The translations under genes and the position numbers were made by a program. Positions 1-61,970 of a stretch of 64,000 nucleotides of DNA are shown one piece after another (position 1 is the first letter of the stretch; each line of letters opens with the position of its first letter). This DNA comes from a virus: the IMG/VR virus record IMGVR_UViG_3300037461_000726, positions 2,973 to 66,972 of that record. The stretch is one strand, 5' to 3'. The notes beneath the pieces are model-generated. The model ran no database searches. It was not told the origin of the DNA and saw nothing but the letters and a program-made list of their open reading frames with translations.

Positions 1-264
1 CATAGCCACAGAACATAACGCATGGTATAAATGTGGCATACCGCTCTCATCATAAATTTCTCCCCCCCAATAGCTCCACAAATGCCGTTGAGCTGCAGCC
101 CATAGCCGAGAAAAATGAATCCCCTTTTCGAAGTTCCGGGCTTCATATTTTATTGCTCCGTATTCAAGAACCTTAGCAAGCGCAACTATTACTTCCGGGG
201 GAATGAGTTCAATTTTCAATTTACTTTTATCGTCTTTTACACCAACTGTTAATTTATTGGCCAT
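1..264 (-). CDS. dATP/dGTP diphosphohydrolase domain protein (DUF5664-like), runs off window edge; not in ORF track
   Basis: Hand translation from ATG at 264: MANKLTVGVKDDKSKLKIELIPPEVIVALAKVLEYGAIKYEARNFEKGIHFSRLWAAAQRHLWSYWGGEIYDESGMPHLYHALCSVAM; GxKY-RN-EKG-SR-RHL-ESG-PHL-HA pattern. Confidence 0.85.
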   Translation of the reverse strand, partial: MANKLTVGVKDDKSKLKIELIPPEVIVALAKVLEYGAIKYEARNFEKGIHFSRLWAAAQRHLWSYWGGEIYDESGMPHLYHALCSVAM

Positions 265-970
265 TTATTTTCGCTCCCTTACTAAAATTTTCTAAACACC
301 ACATGGGTTGTAAATTTTTCAAAGCCCAACACTTCTTAAAATCAGGATGTTCAAAATTGTCATAATGAAATGAAATAATTGGTTTTTTGTGATCAATACA
401 CCACTTATCTTTTCCGTAACCATAATTTTCCCAATTCATTCCTTCTGTAAATAAAGATTCCAAATGTTTCTTCAATTCTTCAACTTTATATCCTACCAAA
501 GTTTCCCAATGACAGCCGTTTTTAAAGGAGCCTGCTTGTTTTAGTGATTTACAAACAGTGGTGGATATACTATGATTAAGTTTCCCTTTAGGAGTAGAAC
601 GTTTCTTTTCCCGTGACCTTCTCATCGATTCTTTTCCGATATAGGACTGTCGATATTGTCTTGCTGATTCGACTCTTTCTTCTTTATGTTTTTCACGATT
701 TCGTTTTTGCTGTATGGCTCTTTTTTGAGGGTTTTCTTTTCGCCATCGTTTTTGTTTTATGGCCACTTTTTCCGGATTACTTTTGTGCCATTGTTTTTTC
801 CTTATTGCTTCTTTTTCCTTGTTATTTTCGCGATATTCTTTAATACATTCTTTACACCAAAACTGCAAACCGTCTTTACAGCTTTTATTTTTAGAAAATT
901 TGACCACTAGCTTTCTTTTCTTACATTTAGTGCATATTTTAGAACCCATATCCGTTTTCTTCATCGCCAT
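254..970 (-). CDS. HNH homing endonuclease with N-terminal Zn finger
   Basis: CTKC...WCKEC N-terminus; WENYG..WCIDHKKP...NLQPMWCLENFSKG HNH core. Confidence 0.8.
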   Translation of the reverse strand: MAMKKTDMGSKICTKCKKRKLVVKFSKNKSCKDGLQFWCKECIKEYRENNKEKEAIRKKQWHKSNPEKVAIKQKRWRKENPQKRAIQQKRNREKHKEERVESARQYRQSYIGKESMRRSREKKRSTPKGKLNHSISTTVCKSLKQAGSFKNGCHWETLVGYKVEELKKHLESLFTEGMNWENYGYGKDKWCIDHKKPIISFHYDNFEHPDFKKCWALKNLQPMWCLENFSKGAKINGQ

Positions 971-2765
971 TACCCATTGCCATCTTTCCTATGTTAGTTA
1001 AAAATAACTTACCCTTCGATTCACCAATCCAACCCTTACTGACCGCATCTCTTTTATACTTGGCTATTGCAGATTTACTTGTTCCTAACAAATCTCTTAT
1101 CTCATCAGCCGTTTTCCCGTCCAAGAATAGCTGTAAAACTTCATTACGTTTTGAAATTCCGGGAGAACTGAATGCCCAAATCAGACTGTCAGACCCCGGT
1201 TCAGCCGGTATCAATCGCGCATTCGTTGCCGCTACAGCAGACCCGGCAATGTGTCTTGATTTTTCAAAAATGATATTAACATCTATCCCAACCGTTGCAT
1301 CTTCCGATGTTTTTCGTAAAGTAATTACAGTATCCAACATGTCTTCTCTTGCACTGGTCCCGCGCTGTGTTCCCGATTTCCCCGCATGATGGACCAAGAT
1401 TACTGCACATCCCGTTTGTTTAAGCTTGTTTACCCATACGGCGATATTATCCCATGAAGTTGATTCATTTTCCTCAATTCCGGGTGTAAGCGCCGAAATG
1501 TTATCAAGTAACAATAATTTGATGTCTTTATCCTTAACCTCATTAAAAATGAAGTCTTGCCAGTATGGTTTAGCAATGTTTATAGACAGTCCACCATTCT
1601 GCAGATTAATGCCTGACGATAAAATATACCAATTCTTCTCCTTTTTGGTATAATTAAATTGAAGATTGGCTATTCTTTTCTTCATGTCCTGCGGCAACAT
1701 TTCCCCGTCAACATACAGGGAATTGACGGCTTCCTGCAATTCCCAATCGCCAAAACCGGACCCATGAGTTACGGATAGCGACAATGACAAGGCAAAGAAC
1801 GTCTTACCGACACCACGCTTGGCATAAATCATATGAGTAGAACCAAACGTCAACCAAGGAGACATAATGGTTTTAATTTCCGGCATGTTCATGGTCTTAA
1901 AAGTATCGATTTCCACGACAAGACTGTTTGCAGTTATCGCACCTTCTTGGTGCATTAACGTTTTTTCAATGAGCAATTGACCGTATGTTTTGCCCTGACC
2001 AACTGACCTATCCCATTTCTCACGGAATGCTTTGGACAACCTAAACATCTGGTCAATTTTAACAGCATCATTTATCCAAAAAGCTAAAATATTGCATAGC
2101 GCCATGTCAGCTTCTGAATGAGATTCGTATTCCTGAGCCCAATTTCCGTCCCATAGTATTTTAAACTTGGCCCCGTTCGCCGATGCTTCAATCCGCTCAA
2201 TCAATTCCTTTATTTCACTGTTACTGAGTAATTCCTTACCGACTGGCTTATTGTCATTTTCAACCTGACCGTCACCGTTCTTAGATATCTTTTGCAAGAG
2301 ACTGTTTACGTTTATCGTATTTACTTTATCGTTACCGGTGATACCGAACCCGCTCATAGTAAAATATCGCCCCTCACTATAAGCTTCTACGCCGCCCTTC
2401 TTGTGTAATATCTTTTTCTTATCAGAATTTTTTACAATTATGTGTATCCCGGACCCGGACAACGACTTTTCGGTGTAACTATTACAGCTATCAATAATCT
2501 TTTGCGCTTTTTCGCTTATCTTACCGTTCTCTACACAATGGTCAATGTCGATGCCGCAATACCCATCATTTGCAGTGAACACAAAACCAAGTCCATCAAA
2601 TTCATGCTTCTTTAACGCTTCACAGGCCTGTTCAAATGTAGTTCCCCATTTAGTTTGGTCCCCGGCCAGATTTCTCCCTGACTTAGGGTTTTTGGGAACC
2701 TTGGCCTTATGACAAATCCATCGCGGAATGTCCTTTATCTCTTGTGGTATGTTATTTTTAATCAT
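939..2765 (-). CDS. Primase-polymerase (AEP, NrS-1-like) fused to RecA-like/AAA helicase
   Basis: GIDIDHC, YTEKSLSGSGIHII AEP motifs; SEADMALCNILAFW helical bundle; Walker A YAKRGVGKT; LLLLDNI; VILVHHAGK. Confidence 0.85.
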   Translation of the reverse strand: MIKNNIPQEIKDIPRWICHKAKVPKNPKSGRNLAGDQTKWGTTFEQACEALKKHEFDGLGFVFTANDGYCGIDIDHCVENGKISEKAQKIIDSCNSYTEKSLSGSGIHIIVKNSDKKKILHKKGGVEAYSEGRYFTMSGFGITGNDKVNTINVNSLLQKISKNGDGQVENDNKPVGKELLSNSEIKELIERIEASANGAKFKILWDGNWAQEYESHSEADMALCNILAFWINDAVKIDQMFRLSKAFREKWDRSVGQGKTYGQLLIEKTLMHQEGAITANSLVVEIDTFKTMNMPEIKTIMSPWLTFGSTHMIYAKRGVGKTFFALSLSLSVTHGSGFGDWELQEAVNSLYVDGEMLPQDMKKRIANLQFNYTKKEKNWYILSSGINLQNGGLSINIAKPYWQDFIFNEVKDKDIKLLLLDNISALTPGIEENESTSWDNIAVWVNKLKQTGCAVILVHHAGKSGTQRGTSAREDMLDTVITLRKTSEDATVGIDVNIIFEKSRHIAGSAVAATNARLIPAEPGSDSLIWAFSSPGISKRNEVLQLFLDGKTADEIRDLLGTSKSAIAKYKRDAVSKGWIGESKGKLFLTNIGKMAMGNGDEENGYGF

Positions 2766-2782
2766 ATTTTATATGACCTTAT

Positions 2783-3262
2783 TTAATCGTGACTTTTACC
2801 AGCTTCAATTATATTGCTTACCGTTTCTGAAATGCGGTCAACGGAAATGCCGCCCATTTCCGCAACTTCCTTTTCCAGAAAGATAATCTTAGACTCCAAA
2901 AACCTTCTTACTCTTCCGGGATTTATGCCATAACGGGCCAACCAAATCGCAGCCTCTATTGTATCAGCTAAACGCAACACCGCCTTTTCCAATGACACTG
3001 ACGGGTCAAGGTCAAATTTTGAACTCTTATGGGAAGACGGGATGTCACCGGTTTCCCCTTCTTCCACGTCATGAAACAAAACATCGAGCACCATCTTTCC
3101 TTCGTCTATGGTACCAAGTTTTAATTTTTGTACTAATTGAAGGGCTAGTATCTGTGTGCGATAAACATGGTCACTTACGGTCTGTGGTCTTGACAAATCG
3201 ACAATTACCCAACGCGGGACGTAACTCAACTTCAACGCCTTTATCAATAACGCCTTATCCAT
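2783..3262 (-). CDS. datZ: HD-domain dATP triphosphohydrolase (DatZ-like)
   Basis: RWVIV..RPQTVSDH..R...LFHDVEEGETGDIPSSHK matches the DatZ/YfbR HD pattern; lies in the purZ cluster. Confidence 0.8.
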   Translation of the reverse strand: MDKALLIKALKLSYVPRWVIVDLSRPQTVSDHVYRTQILALQLVQKLKLGTIDEGKMVLDVLFHDVEEGETGDIPSSHKSSKFDLDPSVSLEKAVLRLADTIEAAIWLARYGINPGRVRRFLESKIIFLEKEVAEMGGISVDRISETVSNIIEAGKSHD

Positions 3263-3566
3263 GTTTTTGTCCTTTTCCGTTTTTAAATCTTATGTTTTCA
3301 CCAATCTTGGCGGTTTTGCTTTCAATGCGGTCTGCGAAACCTTTTTCCTTGTCCAAGCCGATTCTACACATTTCAAGCATGATGGTCAAATCTGCCATTT
3401 CCGTTATTACTTCGTCCACGGTTTTTCTTCCCCTTCGCAGGTGGGAAATTGCCTGTATCAATTCAGCCGCTTCTTCCTGTGTACAATCAAGGCAAAACTG
3501 AAGACCATCAGTCTTAATCGCCTCAAGTAGCATTTCCTTGTACTTGTCTGATTGGTGTTTTTCCAT
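3255..3566 (-). CDS. MazG-like nucleotide pyrophosphohydrolase (MazZ-like role inferred)
   Basis: EEAAELIQAISH..R...EMAD (ExxE...ExxD) MazG motif; between datZ and purZ. Confidence 0.7.
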   Translation of the reverse strand: MEKHQSDKYKEMLLEAIKTDGLQFCLDCTQEEAAELIQAISHLRRGRKTVDEVITEMADLTIMLEMCRIGLDKEKGFADRIESKTAKIGENIRFKNGKGQKHG

Positions 3567-3598
3567 GTTAAAACTCTCCTCTCCGTGACTAAATAATT

Positions 3599-3637
3599 AG
3601 TTTACCACGGCCATATTTTGACTGTCAAGATACAAAC
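3599..3637 (-). promoter_or_regulatory. sigma70-type promoter upstream of mazG-like/datZ/primase
   Basis: GTTTGTATC-TTGACA-N18-TAAACT, TG extended -10. Confidence 0.6.
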
Positions 3638-4753
3638 CTATTGGTCTTCGCCCAATTCCAGCACATCGCCGATTTTTGGCCCCTTACCGATGTACCTTAC
3701 GCGGGCAGACGGGAACGGGACTCCTTTCCAGTCTGTACTTTTCTTGATTGTAATTTCTATGTTATGTATTAGTTCAGAAGTTTTGGGGGTACCAAAACCA
3801 GAATTTTCTTCGAGATAATTGGTAAAGTTTAAAAATATCGCATCCGGGGCCAATAAGGTAATTACCTTTTCTAAATTCTTATTGCTCCAAGTGAACACAC
3901 GTCTTATCTTCTTGGTAACTGTGGTCCTTTCCAGTGGAACACCAAGCTCTTCCCACGTAACTTCGCGCTGGTCATCATACACAGGGCCGCTTGTTCCAAT
4001 CATGTTTCCATCCTTGTCGAAAGCATTACCAACGCGAATCGGATAGGTTCTCATGGAAACTATAACTTCCGGTTTCTTCATGCAAAAGGGTATGCCGCAA
4101 TCAGAAAGGACCTGATGAACATTGATGTCACGACTTGTACAATAAGGATACCACCCGCCACTGTTCGCGCCCAATTCGAGACCCTGTGCCGATTCAATCT
4201 GCAACAGATTACTGGCCATCAATAACTTTGTAAATTCCATTACCGGGATGATTTTTACATCTAACAATTTCAAATGTTCGTTTTCCTTTGCCGTTGCATT
4301 CGGTATTCTCATTATTTTATCGGTTTGCGCGGCTCCTACACCCTTGCAGGTGGATGAAATTCTGTTTAATTCCCCGGCTTCCCTGTCCTTGTGCTCCTGA
4401 CAAATGATAGATGCCGATTCATGGATGTATATCTGTTTTCCCTTTAAGAGGTCAGCGTACTTTTCCATTTCGATGGCCAATACTGTTGGGTCAACAATAG
4501 CCCCCGGCCCTATTAACACATTTTTAACCGATGGCGCAATTATGGCAGAAGGAAGTATTTGTACCATGACCACTCTGCCGTCATCAAGGACGGTTGTATG
4601 CCCAGCGTTGGCCCCAAAATTACAAACTGCAGCATCCGGTTCACGTTTCAGCGCCAAATACCCGGCAATCAATCCTTTTCCGGTGGAACCCCACTGGCCG
4701 TCAATAATCAAATAGCTTCTCTTTATCGGATTTCTAGTAAATTTGTTCCCCAT
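3638..4753 (-). CDS. purZ: PurZ, N6-succino-2-amino-dAMP synthase
   Basis: PurA fold with GQWGSTGKG (Ser where PurA has the catalytic Asp of GDEGKG), NAGHT, YPYCTSRD, TVTKKIRRV, LNFTNY. Confidence 0.92.
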   Translation of the reverse strand: MGNKFTRNPIKRSYLIIDGQWGSTGKGLIAGYLALKREPDAAVCNFGANAGHTTVLDDGRVVMVQILPSAIIAPSVKNVLIGPGAIVDPTVLAIEMEKYADLLKGKQIYIHESASIICQEHKDREAGELNRISSTCKGVGAAQTDKIMRIPNATAKENEHLKLLDVKIIPVMEFTKLLMASNLLQIESAQGLELGANSGGWYPYCTSRDINVHQVLSDCGIPFCMKKPEVIVSMRTYPIRVGNAFDKDGNMIGTSGPVYDDQREVTWEELGVPLERTTVTKKIRRVFTWSNKNLEKVITLLAPDAIFLNFTNYLEENSGFGTPKTSELIHNIEITIKKSTDWKGVPFPSARVRYIGKGPKIGDVLELGEDQ

Positions 4754-4776
4754 AATCTCTAATCTCCTTTTTATTT

Positions 4777-6564
4777 TTATTTACTTGCTTCCAACCAATC
4801 ATCACTTATGCCGATGTCTGAACGAATTGGCACTTTCAACTGTGTAATGTCCTCAACTATTTCCTTTATCTTGTTGGCCGTCTTTTTCACGTCTCCCCTA
4901 GCAAGGAAATTAAACTCATCATGTACAGCAAGAATAAGGCTATTGTCGCTATTTTTAAATTCATTATTTAATTCCACCAACTTCATTTTCATCAAATCAG
5001 CCGATGTTCCTTGAAAAACGAGCCCCGCCGCCTTGTACGCCTTGCTTCGGTCATGGAACCTTATCCTTCGCCCGGATAGCGTTTTTACAAACCCTCTTGT
5101 AGCAGCTATGTGTTCCGCTTCCTTTAACATTTTCTGTACCTTGGGCAGTTTACTATGGTATTTTTTAAACAGAGATTTACCGGCTTTACCGGCAACCAAG
5201 TACACCCGCCCATCTTCAACTTTCTGTGTGTATGGCAACCCGCATTTCTTGGCTACAAGACCCTGACCCATGCCAAAAACGAGCCCAAGATTCAGTTGCT
5301 TTGCAAACGGGTCTCTTTTTAGGCCGGTTAAATCGGCAACCAACTGGTGGTAATCGGCATCCGGGTTAAGTTTAAATTCATTAATCAGACTGGCATCATT
5401 AGAGTAATTGGCAAACACTCTAAACTCGAATTGTCTCCAATCGGCGCTTATCCATTTTTCACCTTTTGGCGCGGTAAACACTGCGCGGACCTCTGCAGCC
5501 TTATCCCCGCTTCTTTTCGGGTTAGGTATCTGTTGCATGTTGGGATTGCTGGCCGACAACCGGCCAGTGATAACTCCATACTCGTCATTTTTCGTCTGAT
5601 TAAAGTCACAACGGATTCGGCCATCGTCATGCATGTGGTCCTGGAACCGCGAAAGAAACGTGTCAATCATTGTTCCATAGCTTCTCTGTTCCAATATTGA
5701 CTTTGAAAGCTCGTCATCCATAAGGCCAAGAGTTTCCTTGTCAAATATCGGATTGCCGGTCTCCTCATTGTATTTGATTTCAACACCTAACGTCTTAAAC
5801 GCCTTTTCCAGTTGTTTTCCTGACCTTACATTTATGTCGAACCCGGCAAGGTCATGCACCCTTTTCCCTATCTCAGTCTTCATAGCGGAAAATCTTACTA
5901 ACGACTCTTCAACCTTGCGAATGCTTATCGGCACCCCGCGCCTCTCCATGTCCAAGAGAGCCAATAATACTCTCATTTCCAGTTTGGACACCTGCTCCAG
6001 TTCTTGATTTGTTATATCAGGTTTCTGAGCCTCATACAACATGCCGGTCATTTCCGTGTCACCAACGGCATAATAGGCAACCATCTCAATCGGCGCTTTA
6101 ATTATGTTTTTCATTTGGTATTTACGCTCAGGTTTACCGCCACAATGGTCGGCCAGCCATTGTAAAAGTTCAATGTCCTTTTTCCGCATGCCAAATCTCT
6201 TTTGACAGATGGCATCCAGAGCATAACTGTGATGTTGGTCATTGATAAGGGTCTCATTTACCATGGTGCACCAAATTTTTGACCTATCAATTACTGACTC
6301 ATCCACCCCCGCATTGATTAACATGTGCAAGTCATACTTGGCATGATGGAACACACAATGCTCAGCTTCGGGCATGTTCGTGTTTAGCCATTTAATTGTA
6401 TTCTTATCGGACCTCAAGGCCCATGATTCATTCCCTATGGTTATTGGAATTAAGAACGGTTTATCGTTTATCTTGTTTAATCCGGTGGTTTCCGTGTCGA
6501 TGATTAAAGGACGGCCAGCTAATCGTGGAAGGTCTGAAACTTTATTAATAGGTAATAGATTCAT
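4777..6564 (-). CDS. Family A DNA polymerase with 3'-5' exonuclease (DpoZ candidate)
   Basis: ExoI IIDTETTGL, ExoII HAKYDL, ExoIII YAVGD; motif A SADWRQFEFR, motif B AKQLNLGLVFG, motif C VHDEF; adjacent to purZ. Confidence 0.92.
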   Translation of the reverse strand: MNLLPINKVSDLPRLAGRPLIIDTETTGLNKINDKPFLIPITIGNESWALRSDKNTIKWLNTNMPEAEHCVFHHAKYDLHMLINAGVDESVIDRSKIWCTMVNETLINDQHHSYALDAICQKRFGMRKKDIELLQWLADHCGGKPERKYQMKNIIKAPIEMVAYYAVGDTEMTGMLYEAQKPDITNQELEQVSKLEMRVLLALLDMERRGVPISIRKVEESLVRFSAMKTEIGKRVHDLAGFDINVRSGKQLEKAFKTLGVEIKYNEETGNPIFDKETLGLMDDELSKSILEQRSYGTMIDTFLSRFQDHMHDDGRIRCDFNQTKNDEYGVITGRLSASNPNMQQIPNPKRSGDKAAEVRAVFTAPKGEKWISADWRQFEFRVFANYSNDASLINEFKLNPDADYHQLVADLTGLKRDPFAKQLNLGLVFGMGQGLVAKKCGLPYTQKVEDGRVYLVAGKAGKSLFKKYHSKLPKVQKMLKEAEHIAATRGFVKTLSGRRIRFHDRSKAYKAAGLVFQGTSADLMKMKLVELNNEFKNSDNSLILAVHDEFNFLARGDVKKTANKIKEIVEDITQLKVPIRSDIGISDDWLEASK

Positions 6565-6621: not shown

Positions 6622-7338
6622 TTAGAATGCTGATTCGTCAGACACCGGCAGGAATAGAGTTTCTTTTTCCTTTTTCATGCCCTCCAATTCTTTGTAGAGC
6701 TTCTCTTCCGTCCAACCCTCAGCCGCAACAGCAAAGTTGTAGAATTTCTGATTGGCCTTATTGGACTGTTTCTTACTGGTCAACCGGTAAGTTACACCAT
6801 GCATTGTCTTGTATGACAGGATGTTCTTTTGAAGTTCCCGCGCTGCTGCCATTTTCGTGGCCGTGTTGAACGAAACTACAAACGGATACATCAGGCCATT
6901 GTTTAACACATCCGGTGATAGGACCAGATAATCAATGGAGATATTCAATTCGTTTCCGGGGGTGAAACCGGCATCGGCTTCCTCTTTTGACTGATAAGTT
7001 GCTACAAAACCGCCGCCCTGTGCTCTGGGCACCCATTCTGTAAACACTTTGCGGACAACCAACGGGCAGAACCTTATACCTTCTTCGCCGTCAAAAAGGC
7101 TGACGGTTGATCCATCCGTTACAATAAACATACCCGCTGCAGCCTTCTTGACAAATTTTGTATCGTCTTCGTCAAGCTCTGGGGAAAGTTGCTGTAACAA
7201 TTTCAGATTGGGGAAAATTAAAGCCGATTCGGTATTGGGAACATTAACGTCTTGTTTCTTCACGTATGCCGGGGGCTTACTCATCGGGTCCGCTTTTTTT
7301 GCCACTTCTTTACTGGCTTTTGGTGTTTCTTTTTTCAT
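6622..7338 (-). CDS. Putative single-stranded DNA-binding protein
   Basis: FPNLKLLQQLSPE motif, acidic/aromatic C-terminus (SDESAF), next to the polymerase. Confidence 0.55.
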   Translation of the reverse strand: MKKETPKASKEVAKKADPMSKPPAYVKKQDVNVPNTESALIFPNLKLLQQLSPELDEDDTKFVKKAAAGMFIVTDGSTVSLFDGEEGIRFCPLVVRKVFTEWVPRAQGGGFVATYQSKEEADAGFTPGNELNISIDYLVLSPDVLNNGLMYPFVVSFNTATKMAAARELQKNILSYKTMHGVTYRLTSKKQSNKANQKFYNFAVAAEGWTEEKLYKELEGMKKEKETLFLPVSDESAF

Positions 7339-7356
7339 CTTCGTTCTCCTTAATTT

Positions 7357-7716
7357 TTATTCGTTATTGATTTTCGTCTCCGGTTTATCAACCGGGTTAC
7401 TACCATTTAACCGTACCCGAACAGGCACATACATGCTTGTCTGGCGGTTCCACTTGTAAAACAAAACACCATTTTCACCTCCTTTCTTTTTAGATAAAAT
7501 CGATGAAACAATGCTAATGTTAATAGGGTCACCACTTGGTACGATTGCATCATTTTCTACATCAAAATGGTCAAGCGCCGACCTTATTTTCTCAATATGT
7601 TCACTTGCATCACCAAATAAAGGATGGTCACGCTGGGCAATCGTTACGATGTTTTCACTTATCTTTAACAGATTGGTGAAGTCCTGCCCGGAGTCTTGAA
7701 CAATAAATATTACCAT
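7357..7716 (-). CDS. Hypothetical protein
   Basis: ORF with RBS in the operon orientation. Confidence 0.55.
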   Translation of the reverse strand: MVIFIVQDSGQDFTNLLKISENIVTIAQRDHPLFGDASEHIEKIRSALDHFDVENDAIVPSGDPINISIVSSILSKKKGGENGVLFYKWNRQTSMYVPVRVRLNGSNPVDKPETKINNE

Positions 7717-7839: not shown

Positions 7840-7877
7840 ATTATATCACATCCCAATTACCCTGTCAAGGTACAAAC
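7840..7877 (-). promoter_or_regulatory. sigma70-type promoter upstream of SSB/polymerase/purZ
   Basis: GTTTGTACC-TTGACA-N17-TATAAT, TG extended -10. Confidence 0.75.
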
Positions 7878-27335: not shown

Positions 27336-27712
27336 AAATGGCAACGAAAAAGAAAAAAGAAAAACCACTGTCTCAGTTGATGAAGGAAATAGGAACGGAA
27401 GCCAATGATTCGGGCAGAATGCTCGTATTGAAGGAATGTGAAAAGGCTGGCATCACGATACCTAAAGTATTAAAGGGAATCGCTGAGGGAATGGAAGCAA
27501 AGGAAGTAAAAGTCACATATTCCGCACAAGAGAGTGAATGGCAATACAGCGAAGAGCAAATTGCATGGCAGATAAGACAGGCCGCGCTCAATCAGGCAAT
27601 AGCGGTATTGGGTATCAAGGCACCGGAAAAGATAGACAGTAAGATAAAGGCCGATGGTCCCATTACTTTTCAAGTGGAATTTGACAGTAAACCAACTGAT
27701 GATGGTAAATGA
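27332..27712 (+). CDS. terS: Probable terminase small subunit
   Basis: Directly upstream of TerL; 126 aa; C-terminal EKID...ITFQVEF. Confidence 0.55.
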   Translation: MKMATKKKKEKPLSQLMKEIGTEANDSGRMLVLKECEKAGITIPKVLKGIAEGMEAKEVKVTYSAQESEWQYSEEQIAWQIRQAALNQAIAVLGIKAPEKIDSKIKADGPITFQVEFDSKPTDDGK

Positions 27713-28986
27713 TGAATAACACGTACAAGGTAGTTTTTCCTGATTATCGCAAGCACCCTGACCAGAATGAATTTGTAGAGTGCGATGCGAAGCGTATCAT
27801 CATCAGAGCAGGAAGACGTGGCGGTAAGACTGTAGGCGCGGGTGCAAGAGCAGCCCGTTCATTTTTGAAGAAAAGAAGGATTCTGTACGCAGCCCCTACA
27901 GCAGACCAGACTGAACGATTTTGGGTCACGGTAATGAAAATCTTCCAGGACCCAATAGACCGTAAGATTCTGTATAAGAATGAAAGTGAACGTGTGTTAG
28001 AGGTTCCCGGCACTGAAATACGAATCAAGGCAAAGACAGCATGGAACGCTGACACATTACGTGGTGACTATGCAGATGACCTTATCCTTGATGAGTGGCA
28101 GTTAACGAATGAGGAAGCTTGGGGGCTGGTTGGTGCACCGATGCTCCTTGACAATAACGGGAATGCAACGTTCATATACACACCGCCATCACTACATTCA
28201 CGCAGTACGAGCAAAGCGCATGACCCGCAACATGCAAGCAAGCTGTTTAAAAAGGCCCAGGAAGAGGAAGCGCTTGCACTGAAAGAAAATAGGCCATCGC
28301 GATGGAAGACTTTTCACTTTTCCAGCGATAAAAATCCGTTTTTAAGTAGAGAGGCCCTTGGCGATATTACGAAGGACATGACCAATTTAGCTTATCGGAT
28401 GGAGGTGCTGGCTGAAGATGTAAATGAAGCGCCGGGCGCATTGTGGACAAGGGAAACGATTGAAAAGAACCGGGTAATGAAGGTGGACACCGATTATGAT
28501 AGACTGGTCGTGGCAATCGACCCTTCAGCAACGAGTGAAGGTGACGAAGCCGGGATAGTTGCAGCCGGTAAGATTGGTGACCATGGATACATAATCGCGG
28601 ACGTTTCAATACAGGGAAGCCCTTTGACATGGGCGCAAAAAGCAATTGATTTGTACAGAAGCTTAGGTGCTAACTGCATAGTGGCCGAGTCCAATCAAGG
28701 TGGAGAAATGATAAGCACCATTATCAGTGGAATCGACCCTCAAATAATGGTAAGTTTGGTCCACGCAAGCAGGGGTAAACAGACAAGAGCGGAACCGATA
28801 GCGGCCAAATATGAGCAGGGATTCGTTCATCATGTAAATAGTTTACCGGCGCTGGAAGACGAAATGTGCTTATGGATTCCCGGTGACAAATCGCCAAATA
28901 GGATGGATGCACTGGTGTGGGCTTGTGCAGAATTGAAGCTTGAAGGAAAAAGTGGCACATCATTCGCCGCTTTCATGGGGGAATAG
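27709..28986 (+). CDS. terL: Terminase large subunit
   Basis: Walker A RAGRRGGKT, LRG...LILDE, nuclease VVAIDPS, SPNRMDALVWA. Confidence 0.93.
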   Translation: MMNNTYKVVFPDYRKHPDQNEFVECDAKRIIIRAGRRGGKTVGAGARAARSFLKKRRILYAAPTADQTERFWVTVMKIFQDPIDRKILYKNESERVLEVPGTEIRIKAKTAWNADTLRGDYADDLILDEWQLTNEEAWGLVGAPMLLDNNGNATFIYTPPSLHSRSTSKAHDPQHASKLFKKAQEEEALALKENRPSRWKTFHFSSDKNPFLSREALGDITKDMTNLAYRMEVLAEDVNEAPGALWTRETIEKNRVMKVDTDYDRLVVAIDPSATSEGDEAGIVAAGKIGDHGYIIADVSIQGSPLTWAQKAIDLYRSLGANCIVAESNQGGEMISTIISGIDPQIMVSLVHASRGKQTRAEPIAAKYEQGFVHHVNSLPALEDEMCLWIPGDKSPNRMDALVWACAELKLEGKSGTSFAAFMGE

Positions 28987-34505: not shown

Positions 34506-34940
34506 ATGGTTATGTTATTTTCCAATTTGAAAATTGAAAAGGGTCAGGTAATCGCGAAGGACCATGATGTGGCCGGTTCCATCGTGTATCAGGGTTTGCC
34601 GATTACGATTGAGAACGAAGAAGGTTCAATCAGGAAATGGAAGAACCAAGAGGGCGAAAAGGGCAAGACCGAGATGTTCTATCGTTACGGCTACATCGAT
34701 GGAACGATTGGCGTTGACGGCGAGGAAATCGATTGCTTCATCGGCCTAAATCCCTATGCTTCCAACGTATATGTAATCAGGTTGGGGAAGGATGACCGGG
34801 AGGAAAAGGTCATGCTTGGGTTTGACAGCAGGGAGGCCGCAAGAGATGCGTTTCTTGCGCATTATCAGGACCAGAGTTTTTTAGGTGAAATTACGGAAAT
34901 GCCGATGTATCTTTTTAAGGACACGCTGGAGTTTAAATAA
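34506..34940 (+). CDS. Inorganic pyrophosphatase-like (InPase) domain protein carrying the shared leader
   Basis: MLFSNLKIEKGQVIAKD then ITIENEEGSIR...YGYIDGTIGVDGEEID.F.G...EEKVMLGF. Confidence 0.75.
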   Translation: MVMLFSNLKIEKGQVIAKDHDVAGSIVYQGLPITIENEEGSIRKWKNQEGEKGKTEMFYRYGYIDGTIGVDGEEIDCFIGLNPYASNVYVIRLGKDDREEKVMLGFDSREAARDAFLAHYQDQSFLGEITEMPMYLFKDTLEFK

Positions 34941-37900
34941 TGGCTAAGCAGACGAAGAAAAACATAGTTACCAAGGATAAACTTACGCAGGACTCGTTCA
35001 CCAATTTTCTTGCAAAGATTGGTGTCGGTACTGATAACTTAAGTTCATATTCTACGTACAGCCTTAACAACCTGATTTCCAGAAACAGGACGTTGCTTGA
35101 GGCCGCCTATAGGAGCTCGTGGCTCGTAGGAATTTCTGTAGATGCGATTGCTGAGGACATGACTCAGGCAGGCATTACCATGGGCTCCGAGATGGAACCC
35201 GATAACATAAAGAAGCTCCATGTCGCGATGAACGATTTCATCATCTGGAGTGCATTGTGTAGTACGATTAAATGGTCCCGGTTATACGGCGGTGCCATTG
35301 CAGTCATTCTGATTGACGGCGCGAAGTATGACGAGCCGTTAAATCTGAACGCCATCGGCAAGGGTACTTTCAAGGGATTGTTGGTGCTGGACCGCTGGAT
35401 GTGTGAACCTTCCCTTGGCGAATTGGTTGACGATTTAAACAAGGATTTCGGTAAGCCGAAGTATTACAAGATACACACTTCAGTTGGAAATGCCAAGCTG
35501 CCCCGGATAAGGGTCCATTACTCAAGGATATTGAGATTTGACGGGATAGAACTTCCCTTTTATCAAAGGCTGTATGAAAATCATTGGGGCCTGTCTGTTG
35601 TAGAGCGCCTTTATGACAGATTGCTGGCCTATGATTCGGCCACGTTGGGCGCGGCTCAGTTGTTGTCCAAGGCCAGCTTGCGAACGATAGGGGTTAAGAA
35701 TTTAAGAGCAGCGTTAGCGCTTGGCGGGAAGGAAGAAGCTGCAGTAATCAAGCAGTTCAATTACATACGGCAGATGCAGAGCAACGAAGGAATAACGTTA
35801 CTTGATTCTGAAGATACGTTTGACATCAAGAGAAGCTCCTTTGATGGAATAAGTGATTTGCTCGTTCAATTCGGGCAACAGATTTCCGGTGCCACTGGCA
35901 TTCCGTTGGTCAGATTATTTGGCCAGTCACCGTCAGGATTTAACGGCGGTGAAACCGATTTACGAAATTACTATGATGGAATCAAGAGGCTGCAGGGTAA
36001 TGTGTTAAAGGACCCATTGTTGAAGGTGCTTGAAGTTATGTCGGCTTCCATACTTGAGCAGAGACTCCCTGAGGACTTTGAAATCGAATTCAATTCGCTG
36101 TGGCAAATGAGTGACAAGGAAAAGGCAGAACTTAATACATCCGATTCCTCTGCTATACGAGAAGATTATGGCGCGGGAATCATAACCAAGGAATTGGCGC
36201 TGAAGGAAAAATTACAATCATCGAGAACAACTGGCCGGTACACGAACATCACTGAGGAAGACATTGCACAGGCGAAAATCGATGATGAAAATAAGCCCCC
36301 GGAAGGTGGAACTCCGGGAATGCCGCCAAGCGGCGTAGGTGAGGAAAATCCGTTGGGTGCCGGGGAAGAGAGTACGTCAAGCGGCATAGAGGAAAAACCG
36401 AAAGAGGGAATTTCCTTAGAGAGCACGTCACCGGAAAAGGAACAGAGCAAGGAAATCAAATCTCCCATAGAAGGAGTGGAATCATCAATCAATGAAAAGG
36501 AGCAGGAATCAAAGAGAGGACTCGATTTCAAGGCGATAAGAGATAAGATGTTCGCCGCAAGGAAGTACATAAGGGATAAGTTCTTCGGGGATGATTTTAA
36601 GGGCGGCATGGGCTCAGCCGGGTATTCAGGGTATTGGACAGCCAACAACCCGGAAGCTTACATGGAATTTAGAAAGATGCACCCGGAAAAGATTGACGGT
36701 AAATTGATGGACTCTTGGATTAAAGGGTACGCCGGTTATTCATCCGGGTCAAACACGGAGTGGTTTAATAAAGGAGCCAATTACCGGAGAAAAGGGACTG
36801 AGGATGCCGATTTTGAAGAGTCCAAGCACCCAAGGGGAAATCCGCAAAACGCCGGTCAATTTTCATCCGGTGGAGGTGGCGGCGCAAAGAAGGAAGAGAA
36901 ACCCACAAAGAAGGAAGAAAAGGCCCCGGCTGAAAGCAAAAAGCCGCAGGGCGTGTTTAAAGAAGGAATGGACATCCCGGAGGAAGGAAGAAATGTTTCA
37001 GCAGTAAAGTTGGAAGATGGAACAGTTTATTACGACACCAAGGCCATGATTCACGCCGACATGCTGGAAAACAACCCGGACATTCCCGCCGATAAAATTG
37101 TTGACGGCGGTTTTATTGTAAACGGTAAGTATGTAAGCGGCAGCGCGAACGCAAAGGGAATCGGGGAACAGGCAAAGGCAAAGAAGATAGTGGAAGGGTT
37201 GACATCTGGTTCTTCCGTTAAGTTTGTAAAGATGGATAACCTTGATAAAGTAAAAGTAAAGACGATTAATGAGGCTGGGTTATCGGAACAGCAAATTAAA
37301 AAGGTGCTTTCCTTTGACGGTTACGACACTGAAGTTTTTTATGATTTCCCGAAGCGAATGCCCGGTGTTACTTATGTAGTGGCTACGGCCATCGGCAAGG
37401 GCGAGACTGCGACAAAGGGAAAGGAAAAGGATGTAATTGAAACCACTTTTTCAGTGGATAATGACAAGCCTGATGACTTACATCTTGATTTCATGGAGGT
37501 GTACGGCAGTAAAAACAAGGGAATAGCCAAGGCTTACCTTGACCGAATTGAACAGTATGCGCGGGAAAATGGAAAGAAGACAATATCGTTGCTTGCGGAC
37601 ATTTCCATTGGCCGTTATGCGTGGGCCAAGATGGGATTTAAGGCTGACCAAGAGACGGTTGACCGTTTGAGGAAAGAGCTGATTGTTCACGCTTCAAACG
37701 TATTAAAGATGAAGTACGGCGGCACCAACGAATTTGGAAAGAAAAGACGGGAATTGATTACGGCCATAGAACCCCTTAAGAGTGTTGAGGAGATTGCAGA
37801 TTTTGAGTTTCCCGACACTGAATACACTGCGAAGGAATTGACCGATTCTAAAGGTTTTCATAATAATGATGTTCCAATGGACATGAAATTGAAAGTCGGG

Positions 37901-38161
37901 AAGTCCTTCCTATTGAACAGTAAGGGGGGATTAGAAAATGACTGGCATGGAACCCGCGAAGTCAAGAAAAAGACCGGGGATAGTCTGGGAACGCTCCTAT
38001 ATGGAGAGTTGGAGACGAAAGATGCGGAAGGCGAACCGACAAGGATGTTATTGTTTACAAATGAAGAACGCGGAACAAAAGAAGGTGAAACCGATATCGA
38101 GTTTCATAAAGACATTTTATTTGCTGATTCTGAGAAGGAAGTAAATGCCAGCAAAGAATAA
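34940..38161 (+). CDS. Portal protein (DUF1073 type) with about 600 aa C-terminal extension containing a GNAT-like module
   Basis: Y..SW..G..VD..AEDM, W.RLYGGA, TG.PL..LFGQSP.GFN..G..D..NYYD; then FEESKHPR..GQF and GIAKAYL..GRYAWAKMGF. Confidence 0.88.
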   Translation: MAKQTKKNIVTKDKLTQDSFTNFLAKIGVGTDNLSSYSTYSLNNLISRNRTLLEAAYRSSWLVGISVDAIAEDMTQAGITMGSEMEPDNIKKLHVAMNDFIIWSALCSTIKWSRLYGGAIAVILIDGAKYDEPLNLNAIGKGTFKGLLVLDRWMCEPSLGELVDDLNKDFGKPKYYKIHTSVGNAKLPRIRVHYSRILRFDGIELPFYQRLYENHWGLSVVERLYDRLLAYDSATLGAAQLLSKASLRTIGVKNLRAALALGGKEEAAVIKQFNYIRQMQSNEGITLLDSEDTFDIKRSSFDGISDLLVQFGQQISGATGIPLVRLFGQSPSGFNGGETDLRNYYDGIKRLQGNVLKDPLLKVLEVMSASILEQRLPEDFEIEFNSLWQMSDKEKAELNTSDSSAIREDYGAGIITKELALKEKLQSSRTTGRYTNITEEDIAQAKIDDENKPPEGGTPGMPPSGVGEENPLGAGEESTSSGIEEKPKEGISLESTSPEKEQSKEIKSPIEGVESSINEKEQESKRGLDFKAIRDKMFAARKYIRDKFFGDDFKGGMGSAGYSGYWTANNPEAYMEFRKMHPEKIDGKLMDSWIKGYAGYSSGSNTEWFNKGANYRRKGTEDADFEESKHPRGNPQNAGQFSSGGGGGAKKEEKPTKKEEKAPAESKKPQGVFKEGMDIPEEGRNVSAVKLEDGTVYYDTKAMIHADMLENNPDIPADKIVDGGFIVNGKYVSGSANAKGIGEQAKAKKIVEGLTSGSSVKFVKMDNLDKVKVKTINEAGLSEQQIKKVLSFDGYDTEVFYDFPKRMPGVTYVVATAIGKGETATKGKEKDVIETTFSVDNDKPDDLHLDFMEVYGSKNKGIAKAYLDRIEQYARENGKKTISLLADISIGRYAWAKMGFKADQETVDRLRKELIVHASNVLKMKYGGTNEFGKKRRELITAIEPLKSVEEIADFEFPDTEYTAKELTDSKGFHNNDVPMDMKLKVGKSFLLNSKGGLENDWHGTREVKKKTGDSLGTLLYGELETKDAEGEPTRMLLFTNEERGTKEGETDIEFHKDILFADSEKEVNASKE

Positions 38162-44650: not shown

Positions 44651-44658
44651 GGAAAGAA

Positions 44659-46143: not shown

Positions 46144-46167
46144 TTTCAAATTAGGAGGAATAAAATT

Positions 46168-46623
46168 ATGAGTAATCAAGCGTTTTTGTATAGAATGCCT
46201 GCTGGTCTTGCAGGAGCCGTTTCAAGGATAGAGGCTTTGGTCTCTGAGCCGAATTTAATTGACACAACCACACCGCCCACTGTTTTTGGTATTCCGGTCA
46301 AGTTGGTTTCCGGAAAGATTCAGAAATGCGCAAGCGGCAACACGCCTTATGGATTTTTGATTCGTCCTTACCCGACTCAATCCGCAACAAGTGAAGCGCT
46401 GGGAACCGCGACTCCTTCACTGCTTCAGACCTGTGATGTAATGAAATCCGGTTATATGCAGGTAGTTTCTGCCGGTGTTCCCGCGAAAGATGGTCAGGTA
46501 TACTTCCTTGATGCCGATGGAACTATTACCGCTTCTGCAACAAGCTCAACGGCTATTGTTGGTTGCAAGTTCATGGGTGCTGCTGATGCGAATGGTCTCG
46601 TAGAAATCGCTTACAATCTATAA
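46168..46623 (+). CDS. Capsid cement/decoration protein
   Basis: YRMPAG.AG...R; between scaffold and MCP; ends VEIAYNL. Confidence 0.7.
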   Translation: MSNQAFLYRMPAGLAGAVSRIEALVSEPNLIDTTTPPTVFGIPVKLVSGKIQKCASGNTPYGFLIRPYPTQSATSEALGTATPSLLQTCDVMKSGYMQVVSAGVPAKDGQVYFLDADGTITASATSSTAIVGCKFMGAADANGLVEIAYNL

Positions 46624-46652
46624 AAATAAAATAATCAAGGAGGTTATAAATT

Positions 46653-60911: not shown

Positions 60912-60937
60912 TAAAATAGTTCAAGGAGGATAAAGAT

Positions 60938-61791: not shown

Positions 61792-61970
61792 AATCGAAAA
61801 ACTGTGATGGTTTTGCGTTTGGGCCGGTTTTAGCGGGCCATTGGAAACAGAAAGAATTGTGGGACGGCACTTATAACATTGATGATTTGATGGACATAAA
61901 TGAAATGATGATGGTCAAAAATGAAAATGAGCGCCGTTACCAAGAGTTTATAAGGAACAACAATGGCTGA
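61402..61970 (+). CDS. Frameshift-extended tail chaperone (-1 PRF; DUF6889-like C-terminus)
   Basis: The -1 frame is open from 61737 to TGA at 61968: ...GPVLAGHWKQKELWDGTYNIDDLMDINE...ENERR; no RBS-supported start of its own seen. Confidence 0.65.

What the first reader, a model, noticed from the sequence alone, without database searches (positions are those of the whole stretch)
1..6564. Complete Z-genome (2-aminoadenine) cluster in a phage with a contractile-tail gene set
Seen: purZ with the GSTGKG signature, next to an HD hydrolase matching DatZ, a MazG-like enzyme and a family A polymerase. The same genome has DUF3383 sheath, DUF3277 tube and DUF2184/DUF2213 head genes. Known: PurZ, DatZ, MazZ and DpoZ replace A with 2-aminoadenine in S-2L, phiVC8 and SH-Ab 15497, which to my knowledge have non-contractile tails. 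Inference: this phage packages Z-DNA and may belong to a little-described myovirus-type Z lineage. The LNFTN motif suggests ATP-using PurZ rather than GTP-using PurZ0.
Basis: partly seen in the sequence, partly recalled or inferred. Interest (0 to 1): 0.78.

Follow-up and report, generated by a model that had tools for sequence, protein, structure and literature searches.

The report
Z-genome cluster in a contractile-tailed phage
An uncultured 92-kb phage with a contractile tail carries the full known gene set for swapping adenine for 2-aminoadenine in its DNA; the pathway is already known and tailed-sheath carriers already sit in databases, but this one acquired it as a swapped-in replication module.

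Summary
On the minus strand of window 1-6564 lie DpoZ (4777-6564), PurZ (3638-4753), a MazG-like pyrophosphohydrolase (3255-3566), DatZ (2783-3262) and a primase-helicase. A second pyrophosphohydrolase, of the DUF550 MazZ type, is cut by the window edge (1-264). PurZ nests in the PurZ clade, apart from PurZ0 and PurA, and keeps the Ser-for-Asp and adenine-stacking residues. DatZ keeps the Trp-x-Ile signature. The polymerase keeps DpoZ hallmarks. The genome is a complete 92,375-bp IMG/VR record with DUF3383 sheath, tube, baseplate and DUF2184 capsid genes.

The claim that Z phages lack contractile tails is outdated. Burkholderia phage Bm1, shown to be a myovirus by electron microscopy, and BCSR129 carry the same cluster plus a DUF3383 sheath. 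So do 4 of 50 IMG/VR purZ contigs. This scan also noted a PurZ in a T4-like phage elsewhere.

Its closest structural kin (capsid 79-88% identical, 56-92 kb) lack PurZ and the whole 26-kb replication module. All eight G/C-only palindromic hexamers are absent (0 seen, 56-91 expected) and GATC is nearly absent. A small survey shows a similar bias in other purZ contigs.

Verdict: new member of a known kind. Z-DNA is likely but unmeasured.

The parts
1..264 (-). N-terminal 88 codons of a 112-aa standalone DUF550-type dATP/dGTP pyrophosphohydrolase (MazZ of the SH-Ab 15497 kind). The gene is G000:C1:2898-3236 and runs 74 bases past the window start.
   Evidence: PF18909, E 4e-29 over the whole domain. 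phrog_801 'dATP/dGTP pyrophosphohydrolase', E 2.5e-31. 32% identical to the N-terminal part of the 385-aa enzyme of Acinetobacter phage vB_AbaSI_2. Homologues lie beside purZ in 15 loci.
254..970 (-). 238-aa protein with an endonuclease VII-like zinc-finger N-terminus. Probably a nuclease or homing endonuclease; not a known Z-cluster part.
   Evidence: phrog_1035 'endonuclease VII', E 2.7e-14. No Pfam hit.
939..2765 (-). Primase-helicase: primase-polymerase type N-terminus, NrS-1 helix-bundle domain and AAA_25 helicase.
   Evidence: PF22763, E 4e-21, and PF13481, E 2e-27. phrog_1829 'DNA primase', E 3e-72.
2783..3262 (-). DatZ: HD-domain dATP triphosphohydrolase, 159 aa.
   Evidence: phrog_7076 'dATP triphosphohydrolase', E 4e-14. 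This is also the top family for S-2L DatZ, E 6e-22. PDB 6ZPA (S-2L DatZ), E 1.5e-5. phiVC8 p25, E 1.5e-13. W18-V19-I20 aligns with the specificity pair W20/I22 of S-2L DatZ (preprint 10.1101/2025.10.22.683976). Homologues lie next to purZ in 80 loci.
3255..3566 (-). MazG-like nucleoside-triphosphate pyrophosphohydrolase, 103 aa. It sits in the slot that mazZ occupies in S-2L (purZ-mazZ-datZ).
   Evidence: phrog_2245 'NTP pyrophosphohydrolase', E 4e-12. Pfam MazG only E 0.009, below its cut-off. E31-E32-x-x-E35 and E56-x-x-D59 are invariant in 5 homologues. hhalign against the S-2L MazZ family gives probability 84%, E 8e-6, over the metal-binding motif. S-2L gene order is seen.
3599..3628 (-). 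Promoter-like site in the 71-base purZ-mazG gap (TTGACA-18-TAAACT with a TG extension).
   Evidence: Consensus scan, 10 of 12 positions. A pattern match only.
3638..4753 (-). PurZ: N6-succino-2-amino-2'-deoxyadenylate synthase, 371 aa.
   Evidence: phrog_1211, E 2e-69. PDB scores: 6FM1 (phiVC8 PurZ) 7e-61, 7ODX (S-2L PurZ) 6e-57, archaeal PurA 6e-30, PurZ0 7VF6 9e-26, E. coli PurA 4e-12. It nests in the PurZ clade on the tree, SH-aLRT 96.
4777..6564 (-). DpoZ: family A DNA polymerase with 3'-5' exonuclease, 595 aa.
   Evidence: PDB 7PBK (phiVC8 DpoZ) 7e-78 against Klenow 2e-37. The best cultured-phage hits are all purZ phages at 266-320 bits, while non-Z phages reach at most 219 bits. Helix-O Tyr is replaced by Phe, R and M of helix E2 are kept, insertions 1 and 3 are present and insertion 2 is absent (PMC8599892). 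A PolA lies next to purZ in 85 loci.
6622..7716 (-). Two genes upstream in the same gene string: Pam3 gp34-like (6622-7338) and Pam3 gp32-like (7357-7716). Function unknown.
   Evidence: PF23977, E 7.5e-31, and PF23992, E 9.5e-11.
7840..7868 (-). Perfect sigma-70 consensus promoter (TTGACA-17-TATAAT with a TG extension). Likely start of the transcript that carries dpoZ and purZ.
   Evidence: 12 of 12 positions in the scan. A pattern match only.
27709..28986 (+). Large terminase.
   Evidence: PF17289, E 4e-10. 57% identical to the terminase of Methanosarcina virus MetMV.
34940..38161 (+). Portal protein with a long C-terminal extension, 1073 aa.
   Evidence: PF06381, E 7e-100.
44647..47627 (+). 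Head genes: DUF2213 protease/scaffold-like (44647-46143), cement protein (46168-46623) and DUF2184 major capsid protein (46653-47627).
   Evidence: PF09979 1e-45, PF22758 3e-23 and PF09950 5e-81.
59775..61375 (+). Contractile tail: DUF3383 sheath (59775-60911) and tube (60938-61375).
   Evidence: PF11863, E 4e-52, and PF11681, E 4.5e-39.
61963..63999 (+). Tape-measure-like protein with a lytic transglycosylase domain. It runs past the window end; 719 aa in the genome.
   Evidence: PF01464, E 1e-5. ORF G000 64935-67094.

Best explanation
The phage encodes the complete known PurZ-type pathway for replacing adenine with 2-aminoadenine (Z) in its own DNA.

Inferred mechanism, by homology to the characterised enzymes of S-2L, phiVC8 and SH-Ab 15497:
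1. The MazG-like and DUF550 pyrophosphohydrolases convert dGTP (DUF550 also dATP) to the monophosphate.
2. [quoted passage not shown]
3. Host PurB and host kinases finish dZTP.
4. DatZ destroys dATP.
5. DpoZ, working with the primase-helicase, copies the genome with Z opposite T.

The genes form one tightly packed minus-strand string, probably transcribed from a consensus promoter at 7868-7840.

The cluster sits in a 26-kb replication module that this phage does not share with its structural relatives. The phage is therefore a mosaic: the head and contractile tail of a non-Z myovirus lineage, joined to a Z-type replication module whose nearest relatives lie on sheath-less 44-58 kb contigs.

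Shown here: gene identities, diagnostic residues, synteny and mosaicism. Inferred: enzyme activities, and that the virion DNA holds Z.
For: **PurZ**
- Clade membership.
- Ser23 stands in place of the catalytic Asp13 of PurA.
- The phiVC8 positions F12, T262, F295, Y298, P233, Y244, W252 and G256 are kept, with one conservative change (F12 to W).

**DatZ**
- Same PHROG family as S-2L DatZ, and the W-x-I signature is kept.

**MazG-like gene**
- It has the catalytic EExxE and ExxD motifs and occupies the S-2L mazZ slot.
- Profile link to the S-2L MazZ family: probability 84%.

**DUF550**
- PF18909, E 4e-29.

**DpoZ**
- Twice the bit score of Klenow against 7PBK. The Tyr-to-Phe gate, the helix E2 residues R and M, and insertions 1 and 3 are present.

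**Synteny and linkage**
- The order DpoZ-PurZ-small gene-DatZ recurs in phiVC8, Bm1, ZP6 and S-2L.
- DatZ and PolA homologues lie within 3 kb of purZ in 80 and 85 fetched loci.

**Integrity of the genome**
- Direct terminal repeats, rated 100% complete.
- One contig bridges the two modules.

**Circumstantial composition signal**
- All 8 G/C-only palindromic hexamers, the sites that Z cannot shield, are absent: 0 seen against 56-91 expected.
- The 56 non-palindromic G/C-only hexamers occur 745 times.
- 43 de-replicated purZ contig clusters lean the same way against 21 control clusters, contrast index p = 0.004.
Against: - No chemical or read-level measurement of the DNA exists. Assembled sequence reads Z as A.
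- The MazG-like protein is not in the S-2L MazZ sequence family by HMMER (E 0.28).
- DpoZ lacks insertion 2 of phiVC8 DpoZ.
- A/T-containing palindromes are still avoided here (O/E about 0.7), unlike most purZ contigs (0.86-1.0). GATC is almost absent. Z is therefore not the phage's only shield, or the module is a recent arrival.
- The palindrome control set is a single structural lineage.
Confidence: 0.8

Rival explanations
1. The cluster works but gives only partial substitution, or serves mainly to remodel the nucleotide pool during infection. The packaged DNA would then be a mix of A and Z.
For: - Four-gene Z clusters expressed in E. coli gave only 14-44% dZ in plasmid DNA (PMC12944874).
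- The phage keeps strong avoidance of many A/T-containing restriction sites and of GATC, as if A-bearing sites still mattered.
- DpoZ lacks insertion 2.
Against: - DatZ, two dGTP/dATP pyrophosphohydrolases and a DpoZ-type polymerase are all present. That combination gives full replacement in the studied phages, as summarised in PMC12884076.
- Some enzymes, such as BstYI (RGATCY) and SalI, cut dZ DNA. Site avoidance therefore does not require A in the DNA.
Confidence: 0.12
2. The contig is a mis-assembly that joins a Z-type siphovirus or podovirus replication module to an unrelated myovirus structural module. No contractile-tailed Z phage would then exist here.
For: - The 26-kb replication module has no homologue in the structural kin G051 and G052.
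- Its nearest PurZ and DpoZ relatives lie on contigs without a sheath gene.
Against: - The record has direct terminal repeats and is rated 100% complete.
- A 59-kb Logan contig at even depth 17 spans the junction with no difference. It may be from the same sample, but it is a separate assembly.
- Both modules show the same rare composition: 0 G/C-only palindromic hexamers, GATC 2 of 79 and 0 of 171 expected, and CCWGG depleted in both.
- Genes at the far end of the minus-strand block (AAA/SbcC-like, metallophosphatase) are shared with the kin.
Confidence: 0.03
3. The PurA-like gene is an ordinary auxiliary adenylosuccinate synthetase that boosts AMP supply, and the neighbours are generic nucleotide housekeeping genes.
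For: - Pfam names the protein only Adenylsucc_synt.
- A related myovirus, G060 (capsid 55% identical), does carry a true PurA-type gene with GDEGKG.
Against: - Ser replaces the catalytic Asp. The guanine-binding TKLD is replaced by NFTN.
- The protein nests within PurZ, far from E. coli PurA: 209 bits to phiVC8 PurZ against 49 bits to E. coli PurA.
- It is flanked by DatZ and DpoZ, as in proven Z phages.
Confidence: 0.02

Closest known systems
Vibrio phage phiVC8 Z cluster (DpoZ, primase, PurZ, p26, DatZ; PDB 6FM1, 7PBK)
   Same: Same gene families in nearly the same order. PurZ is 41% and DpoZ 32% identical. The PurZ branch and the phiVC8-like DpoZ features are shared.
   Different: phiVC8 is a 39-kb podovirus. 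Its primase lies between dpoZ and purZ. Its small gene p26 belongs to another PHROG family (9860 against 2245). No DUF550 gene was found in the 13-kb stretch of phiVC8 that I compared.
Cyanophage S-2L purZ-mazZ-datZ triad (PDB 7ODX, 6ZPA)
   Same: Identical order: purZ, then a pyrophosphohydrolase of about 105 aa, then an HD dATPase. The DatZ W-x-I signature is shared.
   Different: S-2L is a siphovirus with a PrimPol and no DpoZ. The MazG-like protein here is only a remote relative of S-2L MazZ (hhalign 84%; HMMER not significant).
Acinetobacter phage SH-Ab 15497 group (DUF550-DUF5664 fused MazZ)
   Same: A DUF550 (PF18909) pyrophosphohydrolase, PurZ (41% identical) and DpoZ (34% identical, the best cultured hit).
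   Different: There DUF550 is fused to an S-2L-MazZ-like domain in one 385-aa protein next to purZ. Here it stands alone at 112 aa, 3.4 kb away, and a separate MazG-like gene is present.
Burkholderia phages Bm1 (PP183292) and BCSR129 (MW460247)
   Same: Contractile tail with a DUF3383 sheath, plus DpoZ-PurZ-small gene-DatZ. Bm1 is a myovirus by electron microscopy.
   Different: Their genomes are 66-68 kb. Their PurZ falls in the phiVC8/ZP6 subclade, far from this one. Only about 6 weakly similar genes match between this phage and the 44 kb of Bm1 compared. The main text of the Bm1 paper contains none of the terms adenylosuccinate, aminoadenine or diaminopurine.
Uncultured 56-92 kb myoviruses G051, G052 and G053 (IMG/VR), of the Pam3/E217-type 'minimal myophage' structural kind
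   Same: Head, neck, sheath, tube and baseplate genes are shared, mostly at 30-88% identity (major capsid 79-88%, sheath 47-50%). G052 has a similar size, 91.9 kb.
   Different: They have no PurZ and no homologue of any gene in window 1-26000. GATC is only mildly depleted in them (O/E 0.49-0.70, against 0.03 here).

Membership tests
PurZ (2-amino-adenylosuccinate synthetase, PurZ branch) | Ser replaces the catalytic Asp13 of PurA in the P-loop (GSxGKG). | tested here: met
   G22-S23-T24-G25-K26-G27. S23 is invariant in 35 aligned relatives. PMC12884076 reports Ser in 100% of 147 phage sequences.
PurZ (2-amino-adenylosuccinate synthetase, PurZ branch) | Groups with PurZ rather than PurZ0 or PurA on a tree. 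| tested here: met
   94-row IQ-TREE (quick method): PurZ clade SH-aLRT 96, PurZ0 99, E. coli PurA as outgroup. The query lies inside PurZ.
PurZ (2-amino-adenylosuccinate synthetase, PurZ branch) | Adenine-stacking residues F295 and Y298 (phiVC8 numbering) stand in place of the guanine-binding (N/T)KxD. | tested here: met
   F310 and Y313 within FLNFTNY. PurZ0 has LTMxDQ and E. coli PurA has TKLD. The residue roles come from preprint 10.1101/2025.10.22.683976.
PurZ (2-amino-adenylosuccinate synthetase, PurZ branch) | Makes succino-amino-dAMP from dGMP, Asp and ATP. | not testable with these tools
   Needs an enzyme assay.
DatZ (HD dATP triphosphohydrolase) | HD metal-binding motif plus the W20/I22 pair that selects deoxyribose and adenine. 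| tested here: met
   H...HD...D is kept. W18 and I20 align with S-2L W20 and I22 (rule).
DatZ (HD dATP triphosphohydrolase) | Same sequence family as S-2L and phiVC8 DatZ, and linked to purZ. | tested here: met
   phrog_7076 is the top family for both this protein and S-2L DatZ. Homologues lie beside purZ in 80 loci.
MazZ of the S-2L type (MazG-like dGTP pyrophosphohydrolase) | Sequence membership in the S-2L MazZ family. | tested here: inconclusive
   An HMM of 73 S-2L-type MazZ domains scores it at E 0.28. hhalign gives 84%, E 8e-6, over 41 columns. It falls in a different PHROG family (2245) from S-2L MazZ.
MazZ of the S-2L type (MazG-like dGTP pyrophosphohydrolase) | All-alpha MazG fold with the EExxE...ExxD metal site. 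| tested here: inconclusive
   The motifs are invariant. The AlphaFold model is all-helical but extended (pLDDT 75.5). Foldseek finds no significant hit; MazG entries appear only at E 2-4.
MazZ of the DUF550 type (dATP/dGTP diphosphohydrolase) | Full PF18909 domain above the curated cut-off. | tested here: met
   97 bits against a cut-off of 27, covering positions 4-98 of 99.
DpoZ (phiVC8-like, DpoZ-2) | Helix-O steric-gate Tyr replaced by Phe (F459 of phiVC8). | tested here: met
   AKQLNLGLVFGMG here, against AKAINFGLIYGMS in E. coli (rule from PMC8599892).
DpoZ (phiVC8-like, DpoZ-2) | Extended exonuclease helices E1 and E2 with R161/M165, and three polymerase-domain insertions. | tested here: inconclusive
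   The E1/E2 extension with R and M is present. Insertions 1 and 3 are present. Insertion 2 is absent, with a 6-residue gap.
DpoZ (phiVC8-like, DpoZ-2) | Prefers dZTP over dATP. | not testable with these tools
   Needs a primer-extension assay.
Contractile-tailed (myovirus-type) virion | Sheath, tube, tape measure and baseplate genes in one module. | tested here: met
   PF11863, PF11681, a tape measure with an SLT domain, Baseplate_J, Pam3 gp18 plug and DUF2612. Morphology itself has not been seen.

The most novel reading that the evidence does not exclude
Z substitution leaves a readable footprint in plain sequence. Because Z shields restriction sites that hold A:T pairs, purZ phages stop avoiding those sites and purge only G/C-only palindromes. 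This phage is the extreme case: 0 of 8 such hexamers are present, in a genome whose non-Z kin still hold some. Its near-total loss of GATC may mark a cost of Z: a phage that cannot rely on Dam-type methyl protection of GZTC, yet is still cut there. If general, the footprint would flag Z genomes in metagenomes without chemistry, and would help date when a lineage switched bases.
Probability: 0.4. Interest if true: 0.62.

Novelty: new member of a known kind. Interest (0 to 1): 0.42.

Why it matters
The Z pathway itself is textbook since 2021, so the cluster alone is not news. Three things add value.

1. Z clusters are not confined to sipho- and podoviruses. They sit in DUF3383-sheath myoviruses at six or more places on the PurZ tree. 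One of these, Bm1, is a cultured phage whose paper does not discuss the cluster, so a laboratory model for a contractile-tailed Z phage may already exist.

2. This genome shows how the trait spreads. A whole 26-kb replication module is swapped onto a head-and-tail chassis whose relatives use ordinary DNA. The packaging motor, capsid and injection machinery of a non-Z lineage therefore seem to cope with Z-DNA without visible retooling.

3. The skew in restriction-site avoidance gives an inexpensive hypothesis for recognising Z genomes from sequence alone.

Tried and rejected
- A single-protein scan of IMG/VR with PurZ found no close relative. The alignment-based scan was needed.
- T4/P2-type sheath (PF04984) was found in none of 50 purZ contigs.
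- Methanosarcina virus MetMV, the nearest terminase at 57% identity, has neither PurZ nor a DUF3383 sheath.
- An HMM iteration seeded with the 103-aa MazG-like protein stayed at 2 hits. The word-index search gave only 3 further homologues.
- The AlphaFold model of that protein folded as an extended three-helix rod. Foldseek against the PDB gave nothing at E <= 0.001.
- phmmer against PDB sequences found no MazZ for either small hydrolase.
- No RNA holder was listed for the stretch. Only one run, a wetland metagenome and possibly the source, holds it fully.
- The sentence in PMC12884076 that PurZ0 and PurZ prefer 'ATP and GTP, respectively' conflicts with that paper's own introduction. It also conflicts with my recollection of Tong et al. 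2023, where PurZ0 uses GTP. I read it as a slip.
- The restriction paper has no entry for GATC four-cutters in its main text.
- I considered whether the PurA-family gene of the related phage G060 was a second PurZ. It has GDEGKG and scores best against E. coli PurA, so it is not.


Full report
**What is there**

The window is bases 2973-66972 of a 92,375-bp IMG/VR virus record. The record has 127-bp direct terminal repeats and is rated 100% complete. Genes run on the minus strand up to about window 26,000 (replication and accessory genes) and on the plus strand after that (packaging, head, tail).

The finding's stretch holds, read in the direction of transcription:
- DpoZ (4777-6564)
- PurZ (3638-4753)
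- a 103-aa MazG-like protein (3255-3566)
- an HD hydrolase (2783-3262)
- a primase-helicase (939-2765)
- a 238-aa endonuclease VII-like protein (254-970)
- a 112-aa PF18909 protein whose last 24 codons lie beyond the window edge (1-264; G000 2898-3236)

Gaps between the genes are 8-base overlaps up to 71 bases. A perfect sigma-70 consensus promoter lies upstream at 7868-7840, and a weaker promoter-like site lies in the purZ-mazG gap. Both are pattern matches only.

**PurZ**

Against solved structures the protein scores as follows:

| Target | E-value |
|---|---|
| phiVC8 PurZ (6FM1) | 7e-61 |
| S-2L PurZ (7ODX) | 6e-57 |
| archaeal short PurA | 6e-30 |
| PurZ0 (7VF6) | 9e-26 |
| E. coli PurA | 4e-12 |

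I built a 94-row tree from cultured Z phages, four PurZ0 phages, 80 IMG/VR loci and E. coli PurA. It places the protein inside the PurZ clade (SH-aLRT 96), apart from PurZ0 (99). This was the quick IQ-TREE method, and the outgroup branch is long.

The catalytic Asp13 of PurA is Ser23. Of the phiVC8 positions that the metaGPA preprint lists as discriminating, T262, F295, Y298, P233, Y244, W252 and G256 are identical here. F12 is Trp and S273 is Thr. The base-binding motif reads FLNFTNY. PurZ0 phages have LTMxDQ and E. coli PurA has TKLD.

**DatZ**

The HD protein's best PHROG family is 7076, 'dATP triphosphohydrolase' (E 4e-14). That is also the best family of S-2L DatZ. It matches phiVC8 p25 at E 1.5e-13 and 6ZPA at E 1.5e-5. 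In the 6ZPA alignment, W18-V19-I20 sits on the W20/I22 pair that sets sugar and base specificity. Homologues lie within 3 kb of purZ in 80 fetched loci.

**Two pyrophosphohydrolases**

The 103-aa protein sits exactly where mazZ sits in S-2L (purZ-mazZ-datZ) and where small genes sit in ZP6, phiVC8 and Bm1. Its evidence is mixed:
- It has invariant EExxE and ExxD motifs.
- It hits phrog_2245, 'NTP pyrophosphohydrolase', at E 4e-12.
- It links to a 73-member S-2L MazZ profile only by hhalign (84%, E 8e-6). HMMER gives E 0.28.
- A fold prediction was not compact enough to settle the matter.

I call it MazG-like and a positional analogue of MazZ, not a proven member.

The PF18909 gene is the DUF550 kind of MazZ known from SH-Ab 15497. 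PMC12884076 says PurZ phages have 'either a MazZ-2 or a DUF550'. Here both kinds are present as separate genes. In the Acinetobacter phages they are fused in one protein.

**DpoZ**

- 7PBK (phiVC8 DpoZ) scores 266 bits, against 132 bits for Klenow.
- Among cultured phages the top hits are all purZ carriers (266-320 bits), followed by a drop to 219 bits or less.
- I aligned it with phiVC8, Acinetobacter and Bm1 DpoZ and with Klenow. The helix-O Tyr is Phe.
- The exonuclease E1/E2 extension is kept, with its R and M.
- Insertions 1 and 3 are present, and insertion 2 is missing. The rules come from PMC8599892.

**Contractile tail, and whether that is new**

Sheath, tube, tape measure, baseplate J, Pam3-type plug, cement protein, DUF2184 capsid and DUF2213 genes are all present.

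The premise that Z phages lack contractile tails fails on several counts:
- Burkholderia phage Bm1 carries 'DNA polymerase / 2-aminooxy adenylosuccinate synthetase / 111-aa gene / dATP triphosphohydrolase' together with a DUF3383 sheath (E 1e-110).
- Its paper shows a contractile tail by electron microscopy. The main text contains none of the terms adenylosuccinate, aminoadenine or diaminopurine.
- BCSR129 has an 84%-identical PurZ.
- Among 50 IMG/VR purZ contigs, 4 have a DUF3383 sheath and none has a PF04984 sheath.
- On the tree, the six sheath-linked PurZ sequences are scattered.
I did not check it.

**Mosaic origin**

Capsid homologues at 79-88% identity occur on IMG/VR contigs of 56-92 kb. 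None of the contigs in that identity range that I searched has a PurZ, including the 100%-complete 91.9-kb G052. Gene by gene, G051 and G052 share the head, neck, sheath, tube and baseplate genes, mostly at 30-86% identity, plus a few genes at the genome ends. Not one gene of window 1-26,000 is shared.

The nearest PurZ, DpoZ, DatZ and MazG-like relatives (55, 48, 44 and 51% identical) lie on G001. This is a 44-kb contig in which no DUF3383 or PF04984 sheath gene was found. A 4.6-kb Logan contig carries a PurZ at 80% and a DpoZ at 72% identity.

Mis-assembly is unlikely. A 59-kb contig bridges the junction, and both modules share the same odd composition.

**Composition**

| Motif class | Seen | Expected |
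|---|---|---|
| GATC | 8 | about 290-340 |
| 8 G/C-only palindromic hexamers | 0 | 56-91 |
| 56 non-palindromic G/C-only hexamers | 745 (none absent) | 395-677 |
| CCWGG | 15 | about 135 |

The GATC figure confirms note e1-5356113. The non-Z kin show G/C-only palindromes at O/E 0.27-0.35 and GATC at 0.49-0.70.

I then ran a small survey of 43 de-replicated purZ contig clusters against 21 capsid-kin control clusters:

| Palindromic hexamers | purZ median O/E | control median O/E | p |
|---|---|---|---|
| with 2 A/T | 0.86 | 0.64 | 7e-5 |
| with 4 A/T | 1.00 | 0.72 | 1e-4 |
| G/C-only | 0.22 | 0.51 | 0.06 |
| contrast index | -1.84 | -0.70 | 0.004 |

This fits Z shielding the sites that hold A:T pairs. 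dZ DNA resists 53% of 147 enzymes, while BstYI (RGATCY) and SalI still cut it (PMC12944874). The signal is circumstantial, because the control is a single lineage and hosts differ. I found no paper that pairs these terms.

**Verdict**

This is a real, complete PurZ-type Z cluster in a complete contractile-tailed phage genome. It is a new member of a known kind. The context is uncommon but not unprecedented, and the cluster arrived by module exchange. Z-DNA in the virion is likely (about 0.8) but unmeasured.

Noticed in passing
whole genome G000 (window 1-64000 and beyond): All eight G/C-only palindromic hexamers are absent (0 seen, 56-91 expected). The 56 non-palindromic G/C-only hexamers occur 745 times. 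In all, 17 of the 64 palindromic hexamers are absent.
   Followed up: yes
whole genome; GATC at window 391 and 7109 only, six more near the genome ends: GATC occurs 8 times against about 311 expected, and CCWGG 15 times against about 135. The non-Z structural kin show GATC at O/E 0.49-0.70. G052 shares the CCWGG depletion.
   Followed up: partly
L121-L199 (purZ contigs) against L200-L278 (capsid-kin contigs): purZ contigs as a group barely avoid palindromic hexamers that contain A/T (O/E 0.86-1.0). They strongly avoid G/C-only ones (median 0.22). Controls avoid all classes about equally. G050 is a clean case: 1 of 67 expected G/C-only palindromes, other classes near 1.0.
   Followed up: partly
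G052 (L281-L285), G051 (L286-L290), G053 (L295-L297): These 56-92 kb myovirus contigs share this phage's whole structural module but none of its 26-kb replication module. They also lack PurZ. I did not look at what replication genes they carry instead.
   Followed up: partly
G060:C1:58832-59896 (-), within L293: A 72-kb kin phage (capsid 55% identical) carries a short PurA-type gene with GDEGKG, that is Asp and not Ser, next to a Ro60 homologue (49% identical to this phage's Ro60). It looks like an ordinary PurA-like auxiliary gene, not a PurZ.
   Followed up: partly
window 34506-34940 (+): A 144-aa 'InPase' inorganic pyrophosphatase domain protein (PF18823, E 1e-31) sits in the head module beside the portal gene. 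It is shared with the non-Z kin at 50-74% identity, so it is not tied to the Z cluster.
   Followed up: no
window 27709-28986 (+): The nearest cultured terminase is that of Methanosarcina virus MetMV, at 57% identity over 87% of the protein. No other phage in the collection covers more than about 60%.
   Followed up: no
L005 and L115 (Burkholderia phage Bm1, PP183292): A cultured myovirus, confirmed by electron microscopy, with a DpoZ-PurZ-111 aa-DatZ string. The main text of its paper contains none of the terms adenylosuccinate, aminoadenine or diaminopurine. Its G/C-only palindromes are only mildly depleted (O/E 0.58).
   Followed up: partly
L003:7177-8334 (Acinetobacter phage vB_AbaSI_2): The C-terminal part of the 385-aa DUF550 enzyme is picked up by the S-2L MazZ profile. 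The fused 'DUF5664' half therefore appears to be an S-2L-type MazZ domain.
   Followed up: no
PMC12884076, results section on PurZ0 and PurZ: The sentence giving PurZ0 and PurZ preferences as 'ATP and GTP, respectively' contradicts the same paper's introduction, which says PurZ uses ATP.
   Followed up: partly
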